7,708 nt of DNA from a virus (taxonomy: Duplodnaviria; Heunggongvirae; Uroviricota; Caudoviricetes), in IMG/VR virus record IMGVR_UViG_2663763413_000006; one strand, written 5' to 3'. Under the pieces are notes generated by a model that was not told the DNA's origin, searched no databases, and saw only the letters and a list, made by a program, of their open reading frames with translations. Shown in pieces: positions 1-7,708 of the stretch. The first letter of the stretch is position 1. Every line of letters starts with the position of its first letter. The translations under genes and the position numbers were made by a program.

Positions 1-296
1 GGGCCGGTAAAACCGGACTGATACAGCCACTTATCCGCAGCGTGCTGGACTCCGGGGGCTTTGCCGTGGTGTTCGACATGGGGGATGGCTACAAGTCCCT
101 GTGTGAGAACATGGGGGGCGTATATCTGGACGGTGAAACCCTGCGTTTTAACCCGTTTGCGAACATCACCGATATCGACCAGTCAGCGGAGCGTGTCCGT
201 GACCAGTTGTCAGTGATGGCCAGCCCCAACGGTAACCTGGATGAAGTGCATGAAGGTCTGCTGCTGCAGGCGGTCAGGGCCTCCTGGCTGGCCTGA
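1..296 (+). pseudogene. traC: Internal fragment of F-type conjugative transfer ATPase TraC (VirB4-family T4SS ATPase); 5' end outside window, stop TGA at 294-296
   Basis: Frame starting at nt 3 is open from the window edge and reads AGKTGLIQPLIRSVLDSGGFAVVFDMGDGYKSLCENMGGVYLDGETLRFNPFANITDIDQSAERVRDQLSVMASPNGNLDEVHEGLLLQAVRASWLA. The leading AGKT is the tail of a Walker A P-loop. The string matches my recollection of F-plasmid TraC, which continues past ...RASWLA; here a TGA follows immediately. Recognition is from memory, not a search. Confidence 0.7.
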
Positions 297-647
297 TCCT
301 TAACTGATCGGCATTACAGCCAGATGCTGGGCTTTATTGCCGAAAACTATGATCAGGCGCTGACCATCAACGATGTGGCTGAGCACGTCAAACTTAACGC
401 CAACTATGCAATGGGGATATTCCAGCGGGTCATGCAATTGACGATGAAACAGTACATTACCGCGATGCGCATCAACCACGTTCGCGCGTTACTGAGCGAT
501 ACCGATAAAAGTATTCTCGATATTGCCCTGACGGCAGGCTTTCGTTCGAGTAGCCGTTTTTACAGCACGTTCGGCAAATATGTCGGCATGTCGCCGCAAC
601 AATACCGCAAACTTAGCCAACAGCGCCGCCAGACGTTTCCCGGCTAA
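297..647 (+). pseudogene. melR: 3' portion of an AraC/XylS-family regulator (MelR-like C-terminal HTH DNA-binding domain); 5' part of the gene absent
   Basis: Same frame as the traC fragment. Translation SLTDRHYSQMLGFIAENYDQALTINDVAEHVKLNANYAMGIFQRVMQLTMKQYITAMRINHVRALLSDTDKSILDIALTAGFRSSSRFYSTFGKYVGMSPQQYRKLSQQRRQTFPG is a typical AraC-family tandem-HTH C-terminus. Position directly upstream of adiA matches the E. coli melR-adiA-adiY-adiC arrangement. Only about 115 codons are present, so the gene is 5'-truncated. Confidence 0.6.
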
Positions 648-842: not shown

Positions 843-3183
843 ATGATGAAAGTATTAATTGTTGAAAGCGAGTTTCTCCATCAAGACACCTGGGTCGGTA
901 ACGCCGTTGAGCGTCTGGCAGATGCTTTAAGCCAGCAAAATGTTACCGTGATTAAATCCACCTCCTTTGATGATGGTTTTGCCATTCTCTCTTCAAACGA
1001 AGCCATTGACTGCCTGATGTTCAGCTATCAAATGGAACATCCGGACGAACATCAAAACGTCAGACAATTGATCGGTAAGCTTCATGAGCGCCAACAAAAC
1101 GTGCCGGTCTTCCTGTTGGGCGATCGGGAAAAAGCCCTCGCCGCAATGGACCGGGATCTGCTGGAGCTTGTCGATGAATTCGCCTGGATTCTGGAAGATA
1201 CCGCCGACTTTATCGCCGGACGCGCCGTTGCCGCGATGACCCGCTACCGCCAGCAGCTATTGCCGCCACTGTTCAGCGCGCTGATGAAATATAGCGACAT
1301 CCATGAATATTCCTGGGCAGCGCCAGGCCACCAGGGCGGCGTTGGTTTTACCAAAACACCCGCCGGACGTTTCTACCATGACTATTATGGTGAAAATCTG
1401 TTCCGCACCGACATGGGTATCGAACGCACTTCCCTCGGTTCTTTGCTTGACCATACTGGCGCATTTGGCGAAAGCGAAAGATATGCCGCACGCGTATTTG
1501 GTGCCGATCGCTCCTGGTCGGTAGTCGTCGGTACTTCCGGCTCTAACCGCACCATCATGCAGGCTTGCATGACCGATAACGAGATAGTAGGTCGGTGACC
1601 GTAACTGCCAGAAATCCATCGAAAAAGCCATAAAGCCAACAAACAAGAAACCAGGCTAACAGGCGCGAAACCGGTCTACATGGTGCCAAGCCGCAACCGC
1701 TACGGCATTATCGGGCCAATCTATCCGCAGGAAATGCAACCTGAAACCTTGCAGAAGAAAATCAATGAAAGCCCGCTGACCAAAGACAAAGCCGGGCAAA
1801 AACCGTCTTACTGCGTGGTGACCAACTGCACCTATGACGGCGTGTGTTATAACGCTAAAGAAGCACAGGATCTGCTGGAAAAAACCTCCGATCGTCTGCA
1901 CTCTGACGAAGCACTGGTACGGCTATGAACGTTCCAACCCGATCCATGCCGATCACGAGCCATGCGACAGCTCTATGCCGATCAACCCGATCTATGCCGA
2001 TCACTATGCCATGCGCGGCGAACCTGGCGATCACAACGGTCCTACCGTTTTCGCCACCCACTCCACCCACAAACTGCTGAATGCGCTGTCACAGGCCTCT
2101 TATATTCATGTACGTGAAGGTCGTGGGGCGATTAACTTCTCCCGCTTCAACCAGGCCTACATGATGCATGCCACCACCTCCCCGCTGTATGCCATCTGCG
2201 CATCCAACGACGTGGCGGTGTCGATGATGGACGGCAACAGCGGCCTGTCACTGACCCAGGAAGTGATCGACGAAGCGGTTGATTTCCGTCAGGCGATGGC
2301 GCGGCTATATAAAGAGTTCACCGCTGACGGTAGCTGGTTCTTCAAACCGTGGAACAAAGAAGTCGTCACCGACCCACAAACCGGCAAAACCTATGACTTT
2401 GCTGACGCACCAACCAAACTGCTGACCACCGTTCAGGACTGCTGGGTCATGCATCCGGGCGAAAGCTGGCACGGCTTCAAAGATATTCCGGATAACTGGA
2501 GTATGCTCGACCCGATTAAAGTCAGCATCCTTGCTCCGGGAATGGGTGAAGATGGTGAACTGGAAGAAACCGGTGTTCCGGCGGCGCTGGTCACAGCCTG
2601 GCTTGGTCGCCACGGCATTGTGCCTACCCGTACCACTGACTTCCAGATTATGTTCCTGTTCTCTATGGGCGTGACCCGTGGGAAATGGGGGACTCTGGTT
2701 AACACCCTTTGCTCCTTCAAACGCCACTATGATGCCAACACACCGCTGGCGCAGGTGATGCCGGAACTTGTTGAACAATATCCTGACACTTACGCGAACA
2801 TGGGGATTCACGATCTGGGTGACACCATGTTTGCCTGGCTGAAAGAAAACAACCCTGGCGCACGGTTGAATGAAGCCTATTCCGGCCTACCGGTGGCGGA
2901 AATCACCCCGCGTGAAGCGTACAACGCGATTGTCGACAACAATGTCGAACTGGTATCCATTGAAAATCTGCCAGGACGTATCGCGGCAAACTCAGTTATC
3001 CCGTATCCGCCAGGAATCCCGATGCTGCTGTCTGGTGAAAACTTCGGCGATAAAAACAGTCCGCAAGTAAGTTATTTACGCTCGCTGCAATCCTGGGACC
3101 ATCATTTCCCTGGATTTGAACACGAAACAGAAGGGACAGAAATTATTGACGGTATTTACCACGTTATGTGTGTGAAAGCGTAA
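843..3183 (+). pseudogene. adiA: Biodegradative (acid-inducible) arginine decarboxylase AdiA, reading frame broken into three ORFs (843-1598, 1680-1928, 1834-3183)
   Basis: N-terminus MMKVLIVESEFLHQDTWVGNAVERLADALSQQNVTVIKSTSF... and C-terminus ...GTEIIDGIYHVMCVKA match E. coli AdiA as I recall it. In-frame stops TGA 1596-1598 and TAA 1602-1604 lie in a scrambled segment 1581-1658, after which frame 0 resumes (TGAKPVYMVPSRNRYG). A +1 shift near 1911-1916 moves the native reading to frame 1 (WYGY...). A 48-bp in-frame insertion at about 1936-1983 is a diverged partial copy of the following sequence. Confidence 0.85.
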
Positions 3184-3518: not shown

Positions 3519-4443
3519 ATGAGGATTTGCAGCGACCAACCTTGTATTGTTTTATTGACTGAAAAAGATGTCTGGATAAGGGTGAATGGGAAAGAACCTA
3601 TTAGCCTTAAAGCTAACCACATGGCGTTATTAAATTGTGAAAATAATATTATCGACGTCTCCTCTCTTAATAACACTTTGGTTGCTCATATTAGTCACGA
3701 CATCATCAAAGATTACCTCCGGTTTCTGAATAAAGATCTCTCGCAAATACCAGTATGGCAACGTAGCGCTACGCCCATCCTCACCCTTCCATGCCTGACG
3801 CCAGACGTCTTTCGCGTTGCCGCGCAGCATAGCATGATGCCCGCTGAAACTGAGTCAGAAAAGGAACGAACACGTGCATTATTATTCACTGTGCTATCCC
3901 GTTTTCTCGACAGTAAAAAATTCCTTTCACTAATGATGTATATGTTTCACTAATGATGTATATGTTACGTAATTGTGTAAGTGACAGCGTTTATCAAATT
4001 GTGTAAGTGACAGCGTTTATCAAATTATTGAAAGCGAAATCCACAAAGACTGGAATCTTAGTATGCCAGCAAGAGACTGGAATCTTAGTATGGTAGCCAG
4101 TTTGGAATCTTAGTATGGTAGCCAGTTGATGATGTCTCAGCCCAAGTCTGTTAAAGAAAAAGCTGAAAAGCGAAAACACCAGTTATAGCCAAATAATCAC
4201 CACCTGCCGCATGCGTTATGCCGTAAATGAATTAATGATGGACGGTAAAAATATTTAATAATGGACGGTAAAAATATCTCTCAGGTACGCTAAAAATATC
4301 TCACAGGTATCACAGTCCTGCGGCTACAACAGTACGTCGTACTTTATTTCTGTCCTTAAAGACTTATACGGTATGACGCCGCTGCATAAGGTATGACGCC
4401 GCTGCATTATGTTAGTCAGCACAGAGAACGCACTGTCGCCTGA
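3519..4443 (+). pseudogene. adiY: AraC-family activator AdiY, disrupted by multiple short tandem duplications and in-frame stops
   Basis: ORF 3519-3953 reads MRICSDQPCIVLLTEKDVWIRVNGKEPISLKANHMALLNCENNIIDVSSLNN..., matching recalled E. coli AdiY, then terminates early at TAA 3951-3953 inside a duplicated segment. Downstream sequence still encodes AdiY-like peptides in shifting frames (e.g. [56 protein letters not shown]) up to the native-looking stop TGA 4441-4443. Good RBS aggag 8 nt upstream of the ATG. Confidence 0.8.
3925..4409 (+). repeat. Cluster of short direct tandem duplications inside adiY
   Basis: Read directly: tttcactaatgatgtatatg x2 (3925-3944, 3945-3964); attgtgtaagtgacagcgtttatcaa x2 (3972-3997, 3998-4023); gactggaatcttagtatg(gtagccagtt) in three overlapping copies (4048-4065, 4075-4102, 4103-4127); atggacggtaaaaatat x2 (4238-4254, 4261-4277) with a third partial copy near 4291-4310; ggtatgacgccgctgcat x2 (4370-4387, 4390-4407). 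Confidence 0.85.
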
Positions 4444-4579
4444 TTTTTAACCTTAACGAAGAGCTATATTAATAACGGCATCAGCGATAACCCGGCCGAT
4501 AATAATTCAACTATCGAATGCAGGCGTATGATATGACGTAATTTATTGTCACGAAGCTCGCCTTCGCAGGAGTTTAATT

Positions 4580-5163
<584 letters not shown>

Positions 5164-5164
5164 T

Positions 5165-5242
<78 letters not shown>

Positions 5243-5251
5243 TTGCAGATA

Positions 5252-5641
5252 TTACTCTTTTTTCTCCGTATCTGCATCGGGTTCATCAGCAAATAGCTTG
5301 CCCTGCATCCGATCCAGTTCTTCTTTTCTTACCCGCTTAACCACGCTGTAGACCCACTGAAGCGAAACACCAAATTTGCGGGCCAGTTCGTGGTGGTTGC
5401 GTCCGTTAAACTCCCTGAAGATTTCCCGGTCGCGCTGACTGACCTTCCATACCATGCCCATCGGGAAATAAACGTTTTGCCCGCCCCAGACCTGCATCAT
5501 TCGGTTCGCGACGGCCTGACCAATCTGGTCGGCAACTTCGGGCTCAATATCAATAATCTCGCGAACGGTCTCAGAGGTATGCTGTGCCAGTTCCACCAGG
5601 AGTTCCGGCCCCTTACTTCGAAACTGATTCAGGTCGCTCAT
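5252..5641 (-). CDS. mor: Mor-like middle-operon transcriptional activator (Mu gp17 family)
   Basis: 129 aa. C-terminal region ...GGQNVYFPMGMVWKVSQRDREIFREFNGRNHHELARKFGVSLQWVYSVVKRVRK resembles the conserved Mor/C-family HTH region of phage Mu Mor as I recall it (...FNGRN..EL...YG......VY...RR.R). Start overlaps the upstream gemA-like gene by 29 nt. Confidence 0.7.
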   Translation of the reverse strand: MSDLNQFRSKGPELLVELAQHTSETVREIIDIEPEVADQIGQAVANRMMQVWGGQNVYFPMGMVWKVSQRDREIFREFNGRNHHELARKFGVSLQWVYSVVKRVRKEELDRMQGKLFADEPDADTEKKE

Positions 5642-6062
5642 GTTTGACTCCCGCAGCTCTGCGCTGCCACTTCTTCAGTTTCTCAATAACACTGCTTGCC
5701 TGTTCAGTACTGAGCCAGCGCAGGGCGCTGATGCCCGTTTCCCGCTTGATCCACCTCGCTAATGCATTTTCTGAACGGTCACGAACAATGCCGGCAGCAG
5801 CCATTTCAAGCCATAGCGCACGAATTTTCCTGGACTGCGGATGGTTATCAAGCGGTAAACCGGAGCTGGCTTTTCTGGCTGGTTTAACGCGAAAGCCTTT
5901 CTTTTTCATGGATTCCAGCACGCAGTTTAGTTGTGTGGTATCCATTCCTTTGGTTGAGGCTTTACCGGTCAGCCCCTGTAACATCTGGCGGTAGGTGTCT
6001 TCATCCATACCCAGTTCATTACGGGCAATATGGATAAGCTGTATCAGGCGTTTTTTCTGCAT
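5613..6062 (-). CDS. gemA: GemA-like protein (Mu gp16 / DUF1018 family)
   Basis: 149 aa, MQKKRLIQLIHIARNELGMDEDTYRQMLQGLTGKASTKGMDTTQLNCVLESMKKKGFR...KIRALWLEMAAAG... matches the GemA family pattern recalled from Mu-like prophage annotations. Lies immediately upstream of mor as in phage Mu. RBS ggag upstream of ATG at 6062. Confidence 0.65.
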   Translation of the reverse strand: MQKKRLIQLIHIARNELGMDEDTYRQMLQGLTGKASTKGMDTTQLNCVLESMKKKGFRVKPARKASSGLPLDNHPQSRKIRALWLEMAAAGIVRDRSENALARWIKRETGISALRWLSTEQASSVIEKLKKWQRRAAGVKHERPESVSK

Positions 6063-6063
6063 A

Positions 6064-6270
6064 TCATCTCCTTTTTTTCAGTCTGTCGGCAACAATGTCG
6101 GTTGCAGCTGGCAGGGTGACTGGCCAGAACAACATGACGGCGGTCATGTACAGGATGTAATGCGCGGTGTCGTAGTGCCTGCCATAGCCCAGGGAACGAT
6201 GAAGTCTTGCGCTGCATGATCCTGCGTACATATACCAGAAAAGAAAACAGACAATGGTTTCAGTAGTCAT
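6064..6270 (-). CDS. Small hydrophobic (putative membrane) protein, 68 aa, unknown function
   Basis: Internal start of the 6064-6426 ORF: ATG at 6270-6268 preceded by ggagg about 10 nt upstream. MTTETIVCFLFWYMYAGSCSARLHRSLGYGRHYDTAHYILYMTAVMLFWPVTLPAATDIVADRLKKRR has two hydrophobic segments. Start overlaps the stop of the upstream gene; the stop is 1 nt from the gemA start. Confidence 0.4.
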   Translation of the reverse strand: MTTETIVCFLFWYMYAGSCSARLHRSLGYGRHYDTAHYILYMTAVMLFWPVTLPAATDIVADRLKKRR

Positions 6271-6490
6271 TCTGAATACCTCCCCATTCGATATGAATAT
6301 TACGGGCAGCAATGACAGGGTCGTTATTCCACCATGCACCTGACATGTATTTTTCAACCTGTTCGCGTCCGGCAATAACACCAATTGTGATCCCCGGCCT
6401 GACGTTCTTAAAAAAGGCGCGGGCAAAAAGGTATCTGGCAGATATTCGGCAGGCTTTTAATTTCCGGCTTTTACCTGATAGCGTAATCAT
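6260..6490 (-). CDS. Hypothetical phage protein, 76 aa
   Basis: ORF with ATG overlapping the TGA of the upstream DUF2786-like gene (ATGA at 6487-6490, minus strand), consistent with translational coupling in a phage operon. No family recognised. Confidence 0.4.
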   Translation of the reverse strand: MITLSGKSRKLKACRISARYLFARAFFKNVRPGITIGVIAGREQVEKYMSGAWWNNDPVIAARNIHIEWGGIQNDY

Positions 6491-7170
6491 CTGGCCTCCA
6501 GTTTCTGTTGTTCCTGCCCACTGACCGGGCGGTGCAGTCTGACGTTCTGCCCTTCACGAAACCCCGCATAGCGCGAGGCGTCGCCATTGCGGCTTCTTCC
6601 CGGTTTACGCGCCCTGGTGGTTTGCGTCTGCGGGTATTTATGTTCCAGCCACTGCTGCATCAGTTCACGCTCATCATCGGTCAGGGCAAAGGACTGTATT
6701 TCACTGATAACGGCCAGCACCCAGCCTTCGGCAAACTGGTCTCCACGGCTGGTGCGGGTGGCGGTTTTTATTCTTTTGTTCTGTGCACTGATATACTGCT
6801 GACGCGCCTTTTTCAGCTGACGGGCCAGCACTTCCCAGGTGTATGCAGCCAGTGCCGCACGTTCCCGGTTGCCGTAGAACCCCACAGACGGATGCGTGCC
6901 GGGGTGAATGATGGAGTTAACACCAAATACCTCGCGGATGATGTTCATCAGGCCCAGCATGTAGCGCGGTGGACGGAGACTGCCTGTCGGCCAGTAGTGA
7001 CTGATGGTTTCATCAATATCACTCATAGCAATGTCGGAATGTGTGATGCCGTGAACATCCATCAGTTTACGGGCTCGGCGCAGTGCCAGAGCGGCCTCGT
7101 GCGGGTTGCCGGATGCGGCCAGCGCCAGCAACTTTTTCAGTTTCTCAATGTGTTTATTCTGGTCTGTCAT
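6487..7170 (-). CDS. DUF2786-like phage protein (227 aa from ATG 7170; the six-frame ORF extends to 7206)
   Basis: N-terminus MTDQNKHIEKLKKLLALAASGNPHEAALALRRARKLMDVHG resembles the DUF2786 signature (EKI.KLLALA.S.N..EA..A...A..LM) common in prophage early regions. The ATG at 7170 overlaps the TGA of the upstream gene (ATGA) and has ggag about 11 nt upstream, so I prefer it over the 7206 start. Confidence 0.55.
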   Translation of the reverse strand: MTDQNKHIEKLKKLLALAASGNPHEAALALRRARKLMDVHGITHSDIAMSDIDETISHYWPTGSLRPPRYMLGLMNIIREVFGVNSIIHPGTHPSVGFYGNRERAALAAYTWEVLARQLKKARQQYISAQNKRIKTATRTSRGDQFAEGWVLAVISEIQSFALTDDERELMQQWLEHKYPQTQTTRARKPGRSRNGDASRYAGFREGQNVRLHRPVSGQEQQKLEAR

Positions 7171-7382
7171 TGTTCTGTATCTCCGGTATTTTTCTGCCGT
7201 TTCCATGCCCGGACAGCGTCGGACAGCTCTTTCAGGCTGTATGCTGCTTTAAGCTTTTCCCATAACCACTGTGTTGTTATGTGCATCAGCAGGGCAGCCA
7301 GGGCTGCCCCCGCACTGAGGCATGTCGCCAGGCCAGTAAGAATCAGTGTCCATGCGGTGATTTCCCTGAGTATGTCAGCCAT
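7167..7382 (-). CDS. Small putative membrane protein, 71 aa, unknown function
   Basis: MADILREITAWTLILTGLATCLSAGAALAALLMHITTQWLWEKLKAAYSLKELSDAVRAWKRQKNTGDTEQ has one clear hydrophobic helix. RBS gggagg 8 nt upstream of the ATG; stop overlaps the start of the downstream gene. Confidence 0.4.
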   Translation of the reverse strand: MADILREITAWTLILTGLATCLSAGAALAALLMHITTQWLWEKLKAAYSLKELSDAVRAWKRQKNTGDTEQ

Positions 7383-7396
7383 TGAATGCCTCCCGG

Positions 7397-7693
7397 TTAC
7401 TCGTTCGTGTAAATCACGCCCAGTCGTGCAGCCAGACGTTCCAGTTTTTTCTGTTTGTGGAAGTCAATCAGCCGGTCCATCCCCTGAAGGCGCAGTTGCT
7501 CTGTCATGATTTCCACGTCTGCCAGCTCTGCCGCGAGGTCACTTTCGCTGCCCTGTCCGTTCAGGTTGCGGGCGGCACTGGCCGCCAGTTCAGCGGCCTC
7601 TTCTGCCAGTTTCAGGGCCTGTGCGTCCGGCCCGAAACGCTGCAGGGCCAGACGGTAGAGGGCGGTGCGGGTGAGTTCGGTGTTTCGTGTCAT
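7397..7693 (-). CDS. Small MazG-like all-alpha nucleotide pyrophosphohydrolase-type protein, 98 aa (motif-based call)
   Basis: Contains E31-x3-E35 (LAEEAAELAAS), then 20 residues later E56-x2-D59 (AAELADVEIM), matching the MazG/HisE-type metal-binding signature E-x3-E ... E-x2-D. RBS gaggg upstream of ATG at 7693. Inferred from motif only. Confidence 0.5.
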   Translation of the reverse strand: MTRNTELTRTALYRLALQRFGPDAQALKLAEEAAELAASAARNLNGQGSESDLAAELADVEIMTEQLRLQGMDRLIDFHKQKKLERLAARLGVIYTNE

Positions 7694-7708
7694 GCCGCGC
7701 CCTCAGTG

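What the first reader, a model, noticed from the sequence alone, without database searches (positions are those of the whole stretch)
1575..1665. adiA lesion 1: scrambled segment with two in-frame stops that returns to the original frame
Between MTDN and TGAKPVYMVPS the AdiA protein as I recall it has 19 residues (57 nt); the window has 78 nt containing TGA (1596) and TAA (1602) and a repeated aaagcca motif, yet the downstream sequence is back in frame 0. A net in-frame change with internal scrambling is not what a single indel produces.
Basis: partly seen in the sequence, partly recalled or inferred. Interest (0 to 1): 0.4.

Follow-up and report, generated by a model that had tools for sequence, protein, structure and literature searches.

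The report
Assembly stutter artefact inside adiA
The scrambled, stop-containing stretch in the arginine decarboxylase gene is really in this deposited contig, but it is almost certainly an error made when the draft genome was assembled, not a mutation in the bacterium.

Summary
Between AdiA residues MTDN and TGAKPVYMVPS the window has 78 nt (1581-1658) where E. coli has 57, with in-frame TGA (1596) and TAA (1602) and a return to frame.

The segment has three components:
- 15 substitutions.
- A 1-nt insertion (A at 1589), which exposes two native out-of-frame stop triplets.
- A noisy 20-nt re-copy of the reference stretch GCCATAAATCCATCGAACAA. 1 + 20 = 21, so the frame returns by arithmetic.

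The window is a complete 7,708-bp contig, AOQJ01000101.1, of draft assembly GCA_000397385.1. It carries eight lesions of this kind (backward jumps of 6-29 nt with errors at the seams) and no other difference from the reference across 4.8 kb. It also has a non-natural join of a plasmid traC fragment to the inner side of an IS4 end.

No other public sequence searched has lesion 1. A sibling assembly of the same clone (TOP379, AOQB01000082.1) is wild type at this site but has its own stutter lesions elsewhere. The four independent re-assemblies of this clone's raw reads that were retrieved lack lesions L3-L8.

Verdict: assembly or consensus artefact, not a real feature. The real biology in the contig is a Mu-like prophage in adiC and IS4 in melR.

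The parts
846..3183 (+). adiA (biodegradative arginine decarboxylase) as it stands in the contig, broken by lesions 1 and 2
   Evidence: Matches annotated adiA in 5,415 of 5,426 complete E. coli genomes. The best identity is 98.4% only because of the two lesions.
1581..1658 (+). Lesion 1: 78 nt replacing 57 nt of reference
   Evidence: 15 substitutions, +1 nt, and a 20-nt backward jump on the reference diagonal.
1589..1589 (+). 1-nt insertion (A) that shifts the frame
   Evidence: Similar single-A insertions occur at window 1913 and at position 858 of the TOP379 contig.
1596..1604 (+). TGA (1596-1598) and TAA (1602-1604): native out-of-frame triplets (gtTGAcc, cgTAAct) brought into frame by the +1 at 1589
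   Evidence: The bases of both triplets are identical to the reference (MEM 1596-1610).
1590..1626 (+). Copy A: continuation of the reference with errors increasing towards its 3' end
   Evidence: 37 of 42 matches on diagonal 2700, measured over 1590-1631.
1627..1658 (+). Copy B: restart 20 nt upstream in the reference (from GCCATAAA...), error-rich until 1658 and perfect afterwards
   Evidence: 22 of 32 matches on diagonal 2680, the best of 200 diagonals scanned. A conservative chance estimate, computed for at least 21 of 32 matches, is about 8e-4 after correction for the 200 diagonals.
1903..1981 (+). Lesion 2 in adiA: +1 A, 2 substitutions, two backward jumps (29 + 19 nt), net +49
3925..3996 (+). 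Lesions 3 and 4 in adiY: exact 20-nt and 26-nt tandem re-copies
   Evidence: Absent from Logan re-assemblies L012-L015.
4038..4138 (+). Lesion 5 in adiY: backward jumps of 27 + 25 nt with seam errors, net +52
   Evidence: Absent from L010-L015.
4246..4389 (+). Lesions 6 (23 + 22 nt, net +45) and 7 (20 nt) in adiY
   Evidence: Absent from L010-L015.
5064..5080 (+). Lesion 8 in adiC: 4 substitutions and +6 nt, just before the prophage junction
   Evidence: The un-lesioned junction protein (169 aa) is found on 11 other contigs.
1..293 (+). Internal fragment of F-plasmid traC, joined to the inner side of an IS4 end (chimeric join)
   Evidence: 100% identity to traC in many plasmids, where it lies internal to a 2.6-kb gene.
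293..316 (+). Terminal 24 nt of IS4 abutting melR at 317 (real IS4::melR junction)
   Evidence: 28-nt exact match to multi-copy IS4 ends. The identical junction occurs in strain 7CC. The TOP379 contig retains 14 nt of the same end at the same site.
5089..7708 (-). End of a Mu-like transposable prophage (Mor, GemA, DUF2786 and others) inserted in adiC (real junction at 5088/5089)
   Evidence: 100% identity to prophages at other chromosomal sites, all starting at TGATTAGAC. 100% identity to Escherichia phage PhiKM. The same junction occurs in sibling assemblies.

Best explanation
Lesion 1 is a seam error in the deposited draft assembly and is not present in the bacterium's DNA. At this point two sequence pieces with error-laden ends overlapped by about 20 nt (reference GCCATAAATCCATCGAACAA). 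They were laid end to end instead of being merged.

The left piece runs on with growing errors, including one extra A at 1589. The right piece restarts 20 nt upstream and is noisy until 1658. The extra A shifts the frame and exposes two native out-of-frame stop triplets. The unmerged 20 nt adds up with the extra A to 21 nt, so the downstream frame is restored by coincidence.

Shown here: the anatomy, the uniqueness of the lesion, its non-reproducibility in the same clone, and the co-occurrence of bogus joins at repeats.

Inferred: the software step responsible. Scaffolding or gap-closing across coverage gaps, or consensus calling on a thin layout, are candidates. That the read ends were of low quality is also inferred.
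For: 1. Source: the window is the whole 7,708-bp contig AOQJ01000101.1 of draft assembly GCA_000397385.1.

2. Clustering: between 317 and 5088 all 29 difference blocks against a clean contig of the same locus lie in eight clusters. Nothing differs elsewhere.

3. Shared architecture: every cluster is one or two backward jumps on the reference diagonal, with substitutions or junk bases confined to the seams. The jumps are 20; 29+19; 20; 26; 27+25; 23+22; 20; and 6 nt.

4. Uniqueness:
- All 5,398 complete E. coli genomes that matched the 131-nt query fall in the 60-80% identity band; the listed top hits are 76.3%.
- There are 0 exact hits to the lesion 30-mer in GTDB representative genomes and in JGI metagenomes.
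- The 251-aa truncated ORF occurs on this contig only. The lesioned AdiY and AdiC products have NCBI as their only source and no Logan copy.

5. Same clone, different lesions: the TOP379 contig AOQB01000082.1 shares the exact adiC::prophage junction and private prophage-end variants, and it is wild type at lesion 1. It has its own +29 stutter 14 nt downstream, plus +44, +29 and +1 A elsewhere.

6. Raw-read re-assemblies: four Logan contigs of this clone were retrieved (SRR653724, SRR653737, SRR653739, SRR653745). One search indicates three more similar places that were not shown or read. The four retrieved contigs have intact adiY and a clean adiC junction. They lack lesions L3-L8, and three of them (L012-L014) also lack TOP379's intergenic duplications where they cover them.

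7. Bogus joins at repeats: traC is joined to the inner side of an IS4 end here, and IS4 is collapsed to 14 nt in TOP379.

8. Seam next to a contig end: Logan contig L012 starts 3 nt from a seam of a TOP379 lesion.

9. Precedent: duplications that arise from sequencing errors and incorrect gap filling are a described class of assembly error (PMC9516828).
Against: - I could not see the reads of this isolate, so the absence of read support is inferred rather than shown.
- None of the Logan contigs retrieved covers window 1581-1658. For lesion 1 itself the only direct comparison within the clone is the TOP379 GenBank contig.
- That the isolate belongs to the 'TOP' recurrent-UTI series, and that its run is among SRR6537xx, is inferred from neighbouring accession prefixes.
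- The overlap lengths (6-29 nt) do not fit one fixed k-mer, so the exact software step is not identified.
- Both mobile-element junctions flanking the segment are real. The segment should therefore have had normal chromosomal coverage unless the whole data set was thin.
Confidence: 0.88

Rival explanations
1. The artefact arose before assembly, at the level of the library or the reads. Template switching or PCR chimeras, or a few aberrant molecules or reads, carried the stutters and were incorporated faithfully by the assembler.
For: Backward jumps of 19-29 nt with local errors also resemble polymerase template switching. The contig contains a chimeric traC join.
Against: - Eight such events on one 4.8-kb stretch, and further events on the sibling contig, would each have to outvote normal reads.
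- Re-assemblies of this clone's raw reads do not show lesions L3-L8.
- One seam lies next to a contig end of an independent re-assembly, which points to the joining step.
Confidence: 0.06
2. The lesion is a real, private complex mutation of this isolate: a slippage or template-switch duplication with clustered point mutations. It would have arisen in an adi locus already made useless by the prophage insertion in adiC.
For: adiC and melR are genuinely disrupted in this clone, so adiA would be under relaxed selection. Truncated adiA alleles do occur in nature.
Against: - There are no ordinary SNPs across about 4.4 kb of background, against eight complex lesions.
- The lesion is absent from the sibling isolate and from every other sequence searched.
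- The sibling assembly has different lesions of the same odd type, and its intergenic lesions are absent from the read re-assemblies that cover them.
- From general knowledge, E. coli has no known process that makes noisy 20-nt duplications in series.
Confidence: 0.04
3. The segment is a gene-conversion or recombination patch copied from a divergent adiA-like donor.
For: Clustered substitutions in an otherwise identical gene are what mosaic recombination produces.
Against: - No donor exists in 5,426 complete E. coli genomes, in GTDB representatives or in JGI metagenomes.
- The patch contains a frameshift and a self-duplication of the local sequence, not a coherent foreign allele.
Confidence: 0.01

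Closest known systems
False ('homotype') duplications in genome assemblies, caused by sequencing errors or incorrect gap filling (Ko et al. 2022, Genome Biol, PMC9516828)
   Same: Adjacent duplicated sequence that independent data do not support. It is enriched in erroneous bases, sits at joins between assembled pieces, and creates false gene disruptions.
   Different: Those cases are kilobase-scale and in vertebrate assemblies. Here the duplicated units are 6-29 nt in a bacterial short-read draft, and the seam carries many base errors.
Natural adiA and adi-locus pseudogenes in E. coli, for example the single-frameshift adiA of E. coli P0304816.4 and truncated AdiA clusters
   Same: adiA reading frame interrupted in the same part of the protein.
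   Different: The example read here (P0304816.4) is a plain frameshift on a 147-kb contig. Several other truncated AdiA products recur on many contigs; their causes were not examined. Lesion 1 is a 15-substitution, +1, +20 composite found on one contig only.
Replication-slippage tandem duplication
   Same: Head-to-tail re-copy of a short stretch. Lesions 3 and 4 are exact copies.
   Different: Slippage gives clean copies without clustered substitutions and does not recur eight times in 4.8 kb. Copy B of lesion 1 is only 22/32 identical to its template.
Chimeric contigs and collapsed repeats at mobile-element boundaries in short-read drafts
   Same: The contig enters IS4 for 24 nt and is then joined to unrelated traC. 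The sibling assembly collapses IS4 to 14 nt.
   Different: This explains the contig's ends, not the internal stutters. Both point to the same unreliable joining step.

Membership tests
Assembly seam artefact (unmerged overlap with error-laden ends) | Short head-to-tail re-copy of the local sequence at the site (a backward jump on the reference diagonal) | tested here: met
   There is a 20-nt jump from diagonal 2700 to 2680. Copy B matches 22/32, the best of 200 diagonals.
Assembly seam artefact (unmerged overlap with error-laden ends) | Errors confined to the seam in an otherwise identical background | tested here: met
   All 29 difference blocks lie in 412 of 4,772 nt, with none outside.
Assembly seam artefact (unmerged overlap with error-laden ends) | The same kind of lesion recurs in the contig, and at different positions in sibling assemblies from the same project | tested here: met
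   Eight lesions occur here. TOP379 contig AOQB01000082.1 has four others: +29, +44, +29 and +1 A.
Assembly seam artefact (unmerged overlap with error-laden ends) | Not reproduced in independent assemblies of the same clone | tested here: met
   The TOP379 contig and the 40-kb contig L010 are wild type at lesion 1. Logan re-assemblies lack lesions 3-8. Caveat: the Logan contigs retrieved do not cover lesion 1 itself.
Assembly seam artefact (unmerged overlap with error-laden ends) | No raw-read support across the seam, or a coverage gap at the site | not testable with these tools
The only indirect hint is that Logan contig L012 begins 3 nt from a TOP379 seam.
Genuine adiA pseudogene allele | Present in the organism and therefore shared by clone-mates or other genomes | tested here: not met
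   It occurs on this contig only. The clone-mate TOP379 is wild type at the site.
Genuine adiA pseudogene allele | Mutational signature of ordinary decay: a nonsense change, a small indel or an IS, with background SNPs at a comparable rate | tested here: not met
   The lesion is 15 substitutions, +1 and +20 within 78 nt, against zero SNPs in the rest of the locus.
Replication-slippage tandem duplication | Clean duplicate copies without associated base changes | tested here: not met
   Copy A matches 37/42 and copy B 22/32. Lesions 3 and 4 alone would pass this test.
Gene-conversion patch from a divergent homologue | A donor sequence exists | tested here: not met
   No match was found in complete E. 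coli genomes, GTDB representatives or JGI metagenomes.

The most novel reading that the evidence does not exclude
The stutter lesions are real. Individual isolates of this uropathogenic clone would have independently accumulated noisy 20-30-nt tandem re-copies in the adi segment bounded by IS4 and a Mu-like prophage. That would imply a localised, error-prone template-switching process linked to the flanking mobile elements.
Probability: 0.03. Interest if true: 0.6.

Novelty: not a real feature. Interest (0 to 1): 0.05.

Why it matters
It matters mainly as a caution. A database contig shows adiA and adiY as heavily damaged pseudogenes, and gene callers have turned the pieces into unique 'proteins' of 251, 82, 402, 144 and 171 aa that now sit in protein collections. 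Anyone counting pseudogenes, acid-resistance loss or gene decay in uropathogenic E. coli from this and sibling assemblies would be misled.

The genuine biology nearby is modest. A Mu-like prophage truncates AdiC to 169 aa in this clone and IS4 interrupts melR. The arginine-dependent acid-resistance system is therefore probably lost, through the antiporter and not through the decarboxylase.

Tried and rejected
- Exact 30-mer of the lesion searched in GTDB-representative genomes and JGI metagenome contigs: no hit.
- Look-up of the 250-aa ORF starting at the second Met found nothing. The 251-aa version identified the source contig.
- Literature search for AOQJ and neighbouring accessions found nothing directly. 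The 'TOP' series was inferred from AOQB01, AOQQ01, AOQT01 and AOQU01 mentions. The presumed source paper is not held, so the assembly method remains unknown.
- The truncated AdiA of E. coli P0304816.4 was examined as a possible second example of the artefact. It is a plain frameshift and not comparable.
- Look-up of the 107-aa MelR C-terminal ORF, meant to reach Logan contigs of this clone that cover lesion 1, failed. The ORF is called in hundreds of unrelated assemblies and only the longest contigs are read.
- The 23-nt 'filler' at 294-316 was first treated as junk, with no similarity to the local sequences. It was then identified as the IS4 terminus.
- A fixed-k de Bruijn overlap was considered as the cause of the duplications. 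It was rejected as the sole cause because the jump lengths vary from 6 to 29 nt.
- AT-richness as the determinant of seam positions holds for only about half of the seams.
- I first read the prophage as a mini-element ending after mor. The 40-kb contig and phage PhiKM show it is part of a roughly 35-kb Mu-like phage.

Full report
**What is in the sequence**

The window reads, left to right:
- a fragment of F-plasmid traC (1-293)
- 24 nt of an IS4 end (293-316)
- the 3' third of melR (317-647)
- adiA (846-3183)
- adiY (from 3519)
- the 5' part of adiC (4580 to about 5088)
- the end of a Mu-like prophage (5089-7708)

MTDN ends at 1580 and TGAKPV begins at 1659. Wild-type adiA has 57 nt (DVVVVDRNCHKSIEQGLML) between them, and the window has 78. 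TGA (1596) and TAA (1602) are in frame. 'aaagcca' occurs twice, and the downstream frame is restored.

**Anatomy of lesion 1**

I aligned the window to E. coli D8 adiA, the closest complete genome, and decomposed the result into exact matches.
- Two substitutions at 1583-1584 come first.
- One extra A follows at 1589.
- The reference then continues on a diagonal shifted by one (copy A, 37/42 matches over 1590-1631).
- At 1627 the sequence restarts 20 nt upstream in the reference with GCCATAAA. Copy B (1627-1658) matches 22/32, the best of 200 diagonals. A conservative chance estimate is about 8e-4 after correction.
- From 1659 the sequence is perfect again.

In total there are 15 substitutions, +1 nt and a noisy 20-nt re-copy. 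The two stops are the native out-of-frame triplets gtTGAcc and cgTAAct, brought into frame by the extra A. Their bases are unchanged from the reference. The return to frame is 1 + 20 = 21. Among the contig's eight lesions the net lengths are 21, 49, 20, 26, 52, 45, 20 and 6. Three are divisible by 3, as chance predicts.

**Lesion 1 is one of a series**

Between 317 and 5088 every difference from the reference lies in eight clusters that cover 412 of 4,772 nt. There are no differences elsewhere.

Each cluster has the same architecture: one or two backward jumps on the reference diagonal, with substitutions or a few junk bases at the seams.

| Lesion | Window position | Gene | Backward jumps (nt) |
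|---|---|---|---|
| L1 | 1583-1658 | adiA | 20 |
| L2 | 1903-1981 | adiA | 29 + 19 |
| L3 | 3925-3944 | adiY | 20 |
| L4 | 3971-3996 | adiY | 26 |
| L5 | 4038-4138 | adiY | 27 + 25 |
| L6 | 4246-4303 | adiY | 23 + 22 |
| L7 | 4355-4389 | adiY | 20 |
| L8 | 5064-5080 | adiC | 6 |

This is not how a gene decays, because there is not one ordinary SNP in the background.

**Where the window comes from**

An exact-protein look-up of the 251-aa truncated ORF shows that the window is the whole contig AOQJ01000101.1 (7,708 bp) of NCBI draft assembly GCA_000397385.1.

Neighbouring WGS prefixes belong to the 'TOP' E. coli isolates:
- AOQB01 is TOP379 (PMC5060011).
- AOQQ01, AOQT01 and AOQU01 are TOP2396_1, TOP2515 and TOP2522_1 (PMC9774513).

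The source is therefore probably another isolate of that series. This is an inference. From memory, these are isolates from women with recurrent urinary-tract infection. The source paper was not available.

**Uniqueness**

- All 5,398 complete E. coli genomes that matched the 131-nt query fall in the 60-80% identity band. The listed top hits are 76.3%, so none carries the lesion.
- The lesion's 30-mer has no exact match in GTDB-representative genomes or JGI metagenome contigs.
- The lesioned products of adiA, adiY and adiC occur on this one NCBI contig and in no Logan or ENA assembly.

**The decisive comparison**

The adiC/prophage junction lies exactly at the phage terminus (5'-TGATTAGAC). 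That terminus is shared by copies inserted next to ycaL and inside a lambdoid prophage in other strains. The junction is therefore a real insertion.

I predicted the un-lesioned junction protein, ending ...ALIPIVGIAVFD*. It exists as a 169-aa protein on 11 other contigs:
- a 40-kb contig (L010) with intact melR, adiA and adiY, and no difference from D8 up to the junction
- the GenBank contig of TOP379 (AOQB01000082.1, L011)
- Logan re-assemblies of raw SRA runs; four were retrieved (SRR653724, SRR653737, SRR653739, SRR653745), and one search indicates three more similar places that were not shown

TOP379 and the four Logan contigs share with the window an exact 119-nt adiC-end/phage-end sequence. 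It includes private phage-end variants that L010 lacks. They are therefore the same clone as the window.

Within that clone:
- TOP379's deposited contig is wild type at lesion 1 and at all the window's other lesions.
- TOP379 has its own stutters: +29 in adiA only 14 nt downstream of lesion 1, +44 (21 + 23) and +29 (27 + 2) in the adiA-adiY spacer, and a single extra A.
- The four retrieved Logan re-assemblies carry none of the window's lesions L3-L8. Three of them (L012-L014) also lack TOP379's intergenic duplications where they cover them.
- One Logan contig begins 3 nt from one of TOP379's seams. This suggests that seams sit where contigs ended.

**Bogus joins at repeats**

The deposited assemblies also make bogus joins at repeats. 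Window 293-316 is the terminal 24 nt of IS4, abutting melR at a site where the unrelated strain 7CC also carries IS4. On its inner side the IS4 end is joined to the middle of traC, which is not a natural structure. In TOP379 the same IS4 insertion is collapsed to 14 nt.

**Interpretation**

Lesion 1 is best explained as an assembly or consensus seam. Two pieces with error-rich ends overlapped by about 20 nt and were abutted instead of merged. Duplications that arise from sequencing errors and faulty gap filling are a recognised class of assembly error (PMC9516828).

- Shown: the anatomy, the uniqueness, the non-reproducibility within the clone, and the unreliable joins.
- Inferred: which software step is responsible, and that coverage was thin. 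Logan contigs of these runs break at many different places in this locus, which is consistent with thin coverage.
- Not shown: a read pile-up for this isolate. None of the Logan contigs retrieved covers 1581-1658.

**Rivals**

- A library-level template-switch artefact remains possible but would change little.
- A real private mutation is unlikely, given zero background SNPs, eight odd lesions of one type, and different lesions in the sibling assembly, whose intergenic lesions are absent from the read re-assemblies that cover them.
- Gene conversion is excluded for lack of any donor and because the patch is a self-duplication of the local sequence.

**Verdict**

The feature is an artefact of the deposited assembly, not a property of the genome. 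Interest is low.

The real findings in the window are ordinary. A Mu-like prophage, 100% identical over 2.6 kb to Escherichia phage PhiKM, is inserted in adiC. IS4 is inserted in melR.

Noticed in passing
window 5088/5089 (adiC | prophage end), 5089-7708: adiC is genuinely interrupted by the terminus (TGATTAGAC...) of a Mu-like transposable prophage, 100% identical to Escherichia phage PhiKM. The clean junction gives a 169-aa AdiC and is shared by TOP379, a 40-kb contig and Logan re-assemblies of raw reads (four retrieved). The clone has probably lost arginine-dependent acid resistance through the antiporter.
   Followed up: partly
window 293-317: The terminal 24 nt of IS4 abut melR at 317. 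The identical IS4::melR junction occurs in the unrelated (about 1% diverged) strain 7CC, which suggests an IS4 target hot spot in melR.
   Followed up: partly
window 1-293: A 293-nt internal fragment of F-plasmid traC (100% identity) is joined to the inner side of the IS4 end. This is a chimeric contig join, not a natural structure.
   Followed up: yes
window 1903-1981, 3925-3996, 4038-4138, 4246-4303, 4355-4389, 5064-5080: Seven further stutter lesions of the same type as lesion 1 break adiA a second time, break adiY five times, and scramble adiC just before the prophage junction.
   Followed up: yes
L011 (AOQB01000082.1, E. coli TOP379) 858, 1501-1518, 2854-2882, 4489-4532, 4588-4616: The sibling GenBank assembly has its own stutter lesions and a collapsed IS4. 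One +29 stutter in adiA lies only 14 nt downstream of the window's lesion 1. This part of adiA may be a recurrent weak spot in the project's data.
   Followed up: partly
protein collection, clusters of P0001, P0016, P0031: The artefactual ORF products (251-aa AdiA, 144-aa AdiY, 171-aa AdiC fusion) are stored as unique proteins in the large protein collection. This is database pollution from the contig.
   Followed up: no
protein cluster 1: Many other truncated AdiA products end at residues 250-275. For example...DNDVVVVDRN is seen on 112 contigs and ...TGAKPVYMV on 91. Some may be real nonsense or IS alleles and others contig-end truncations. I did not examine them.
   Followed up: no
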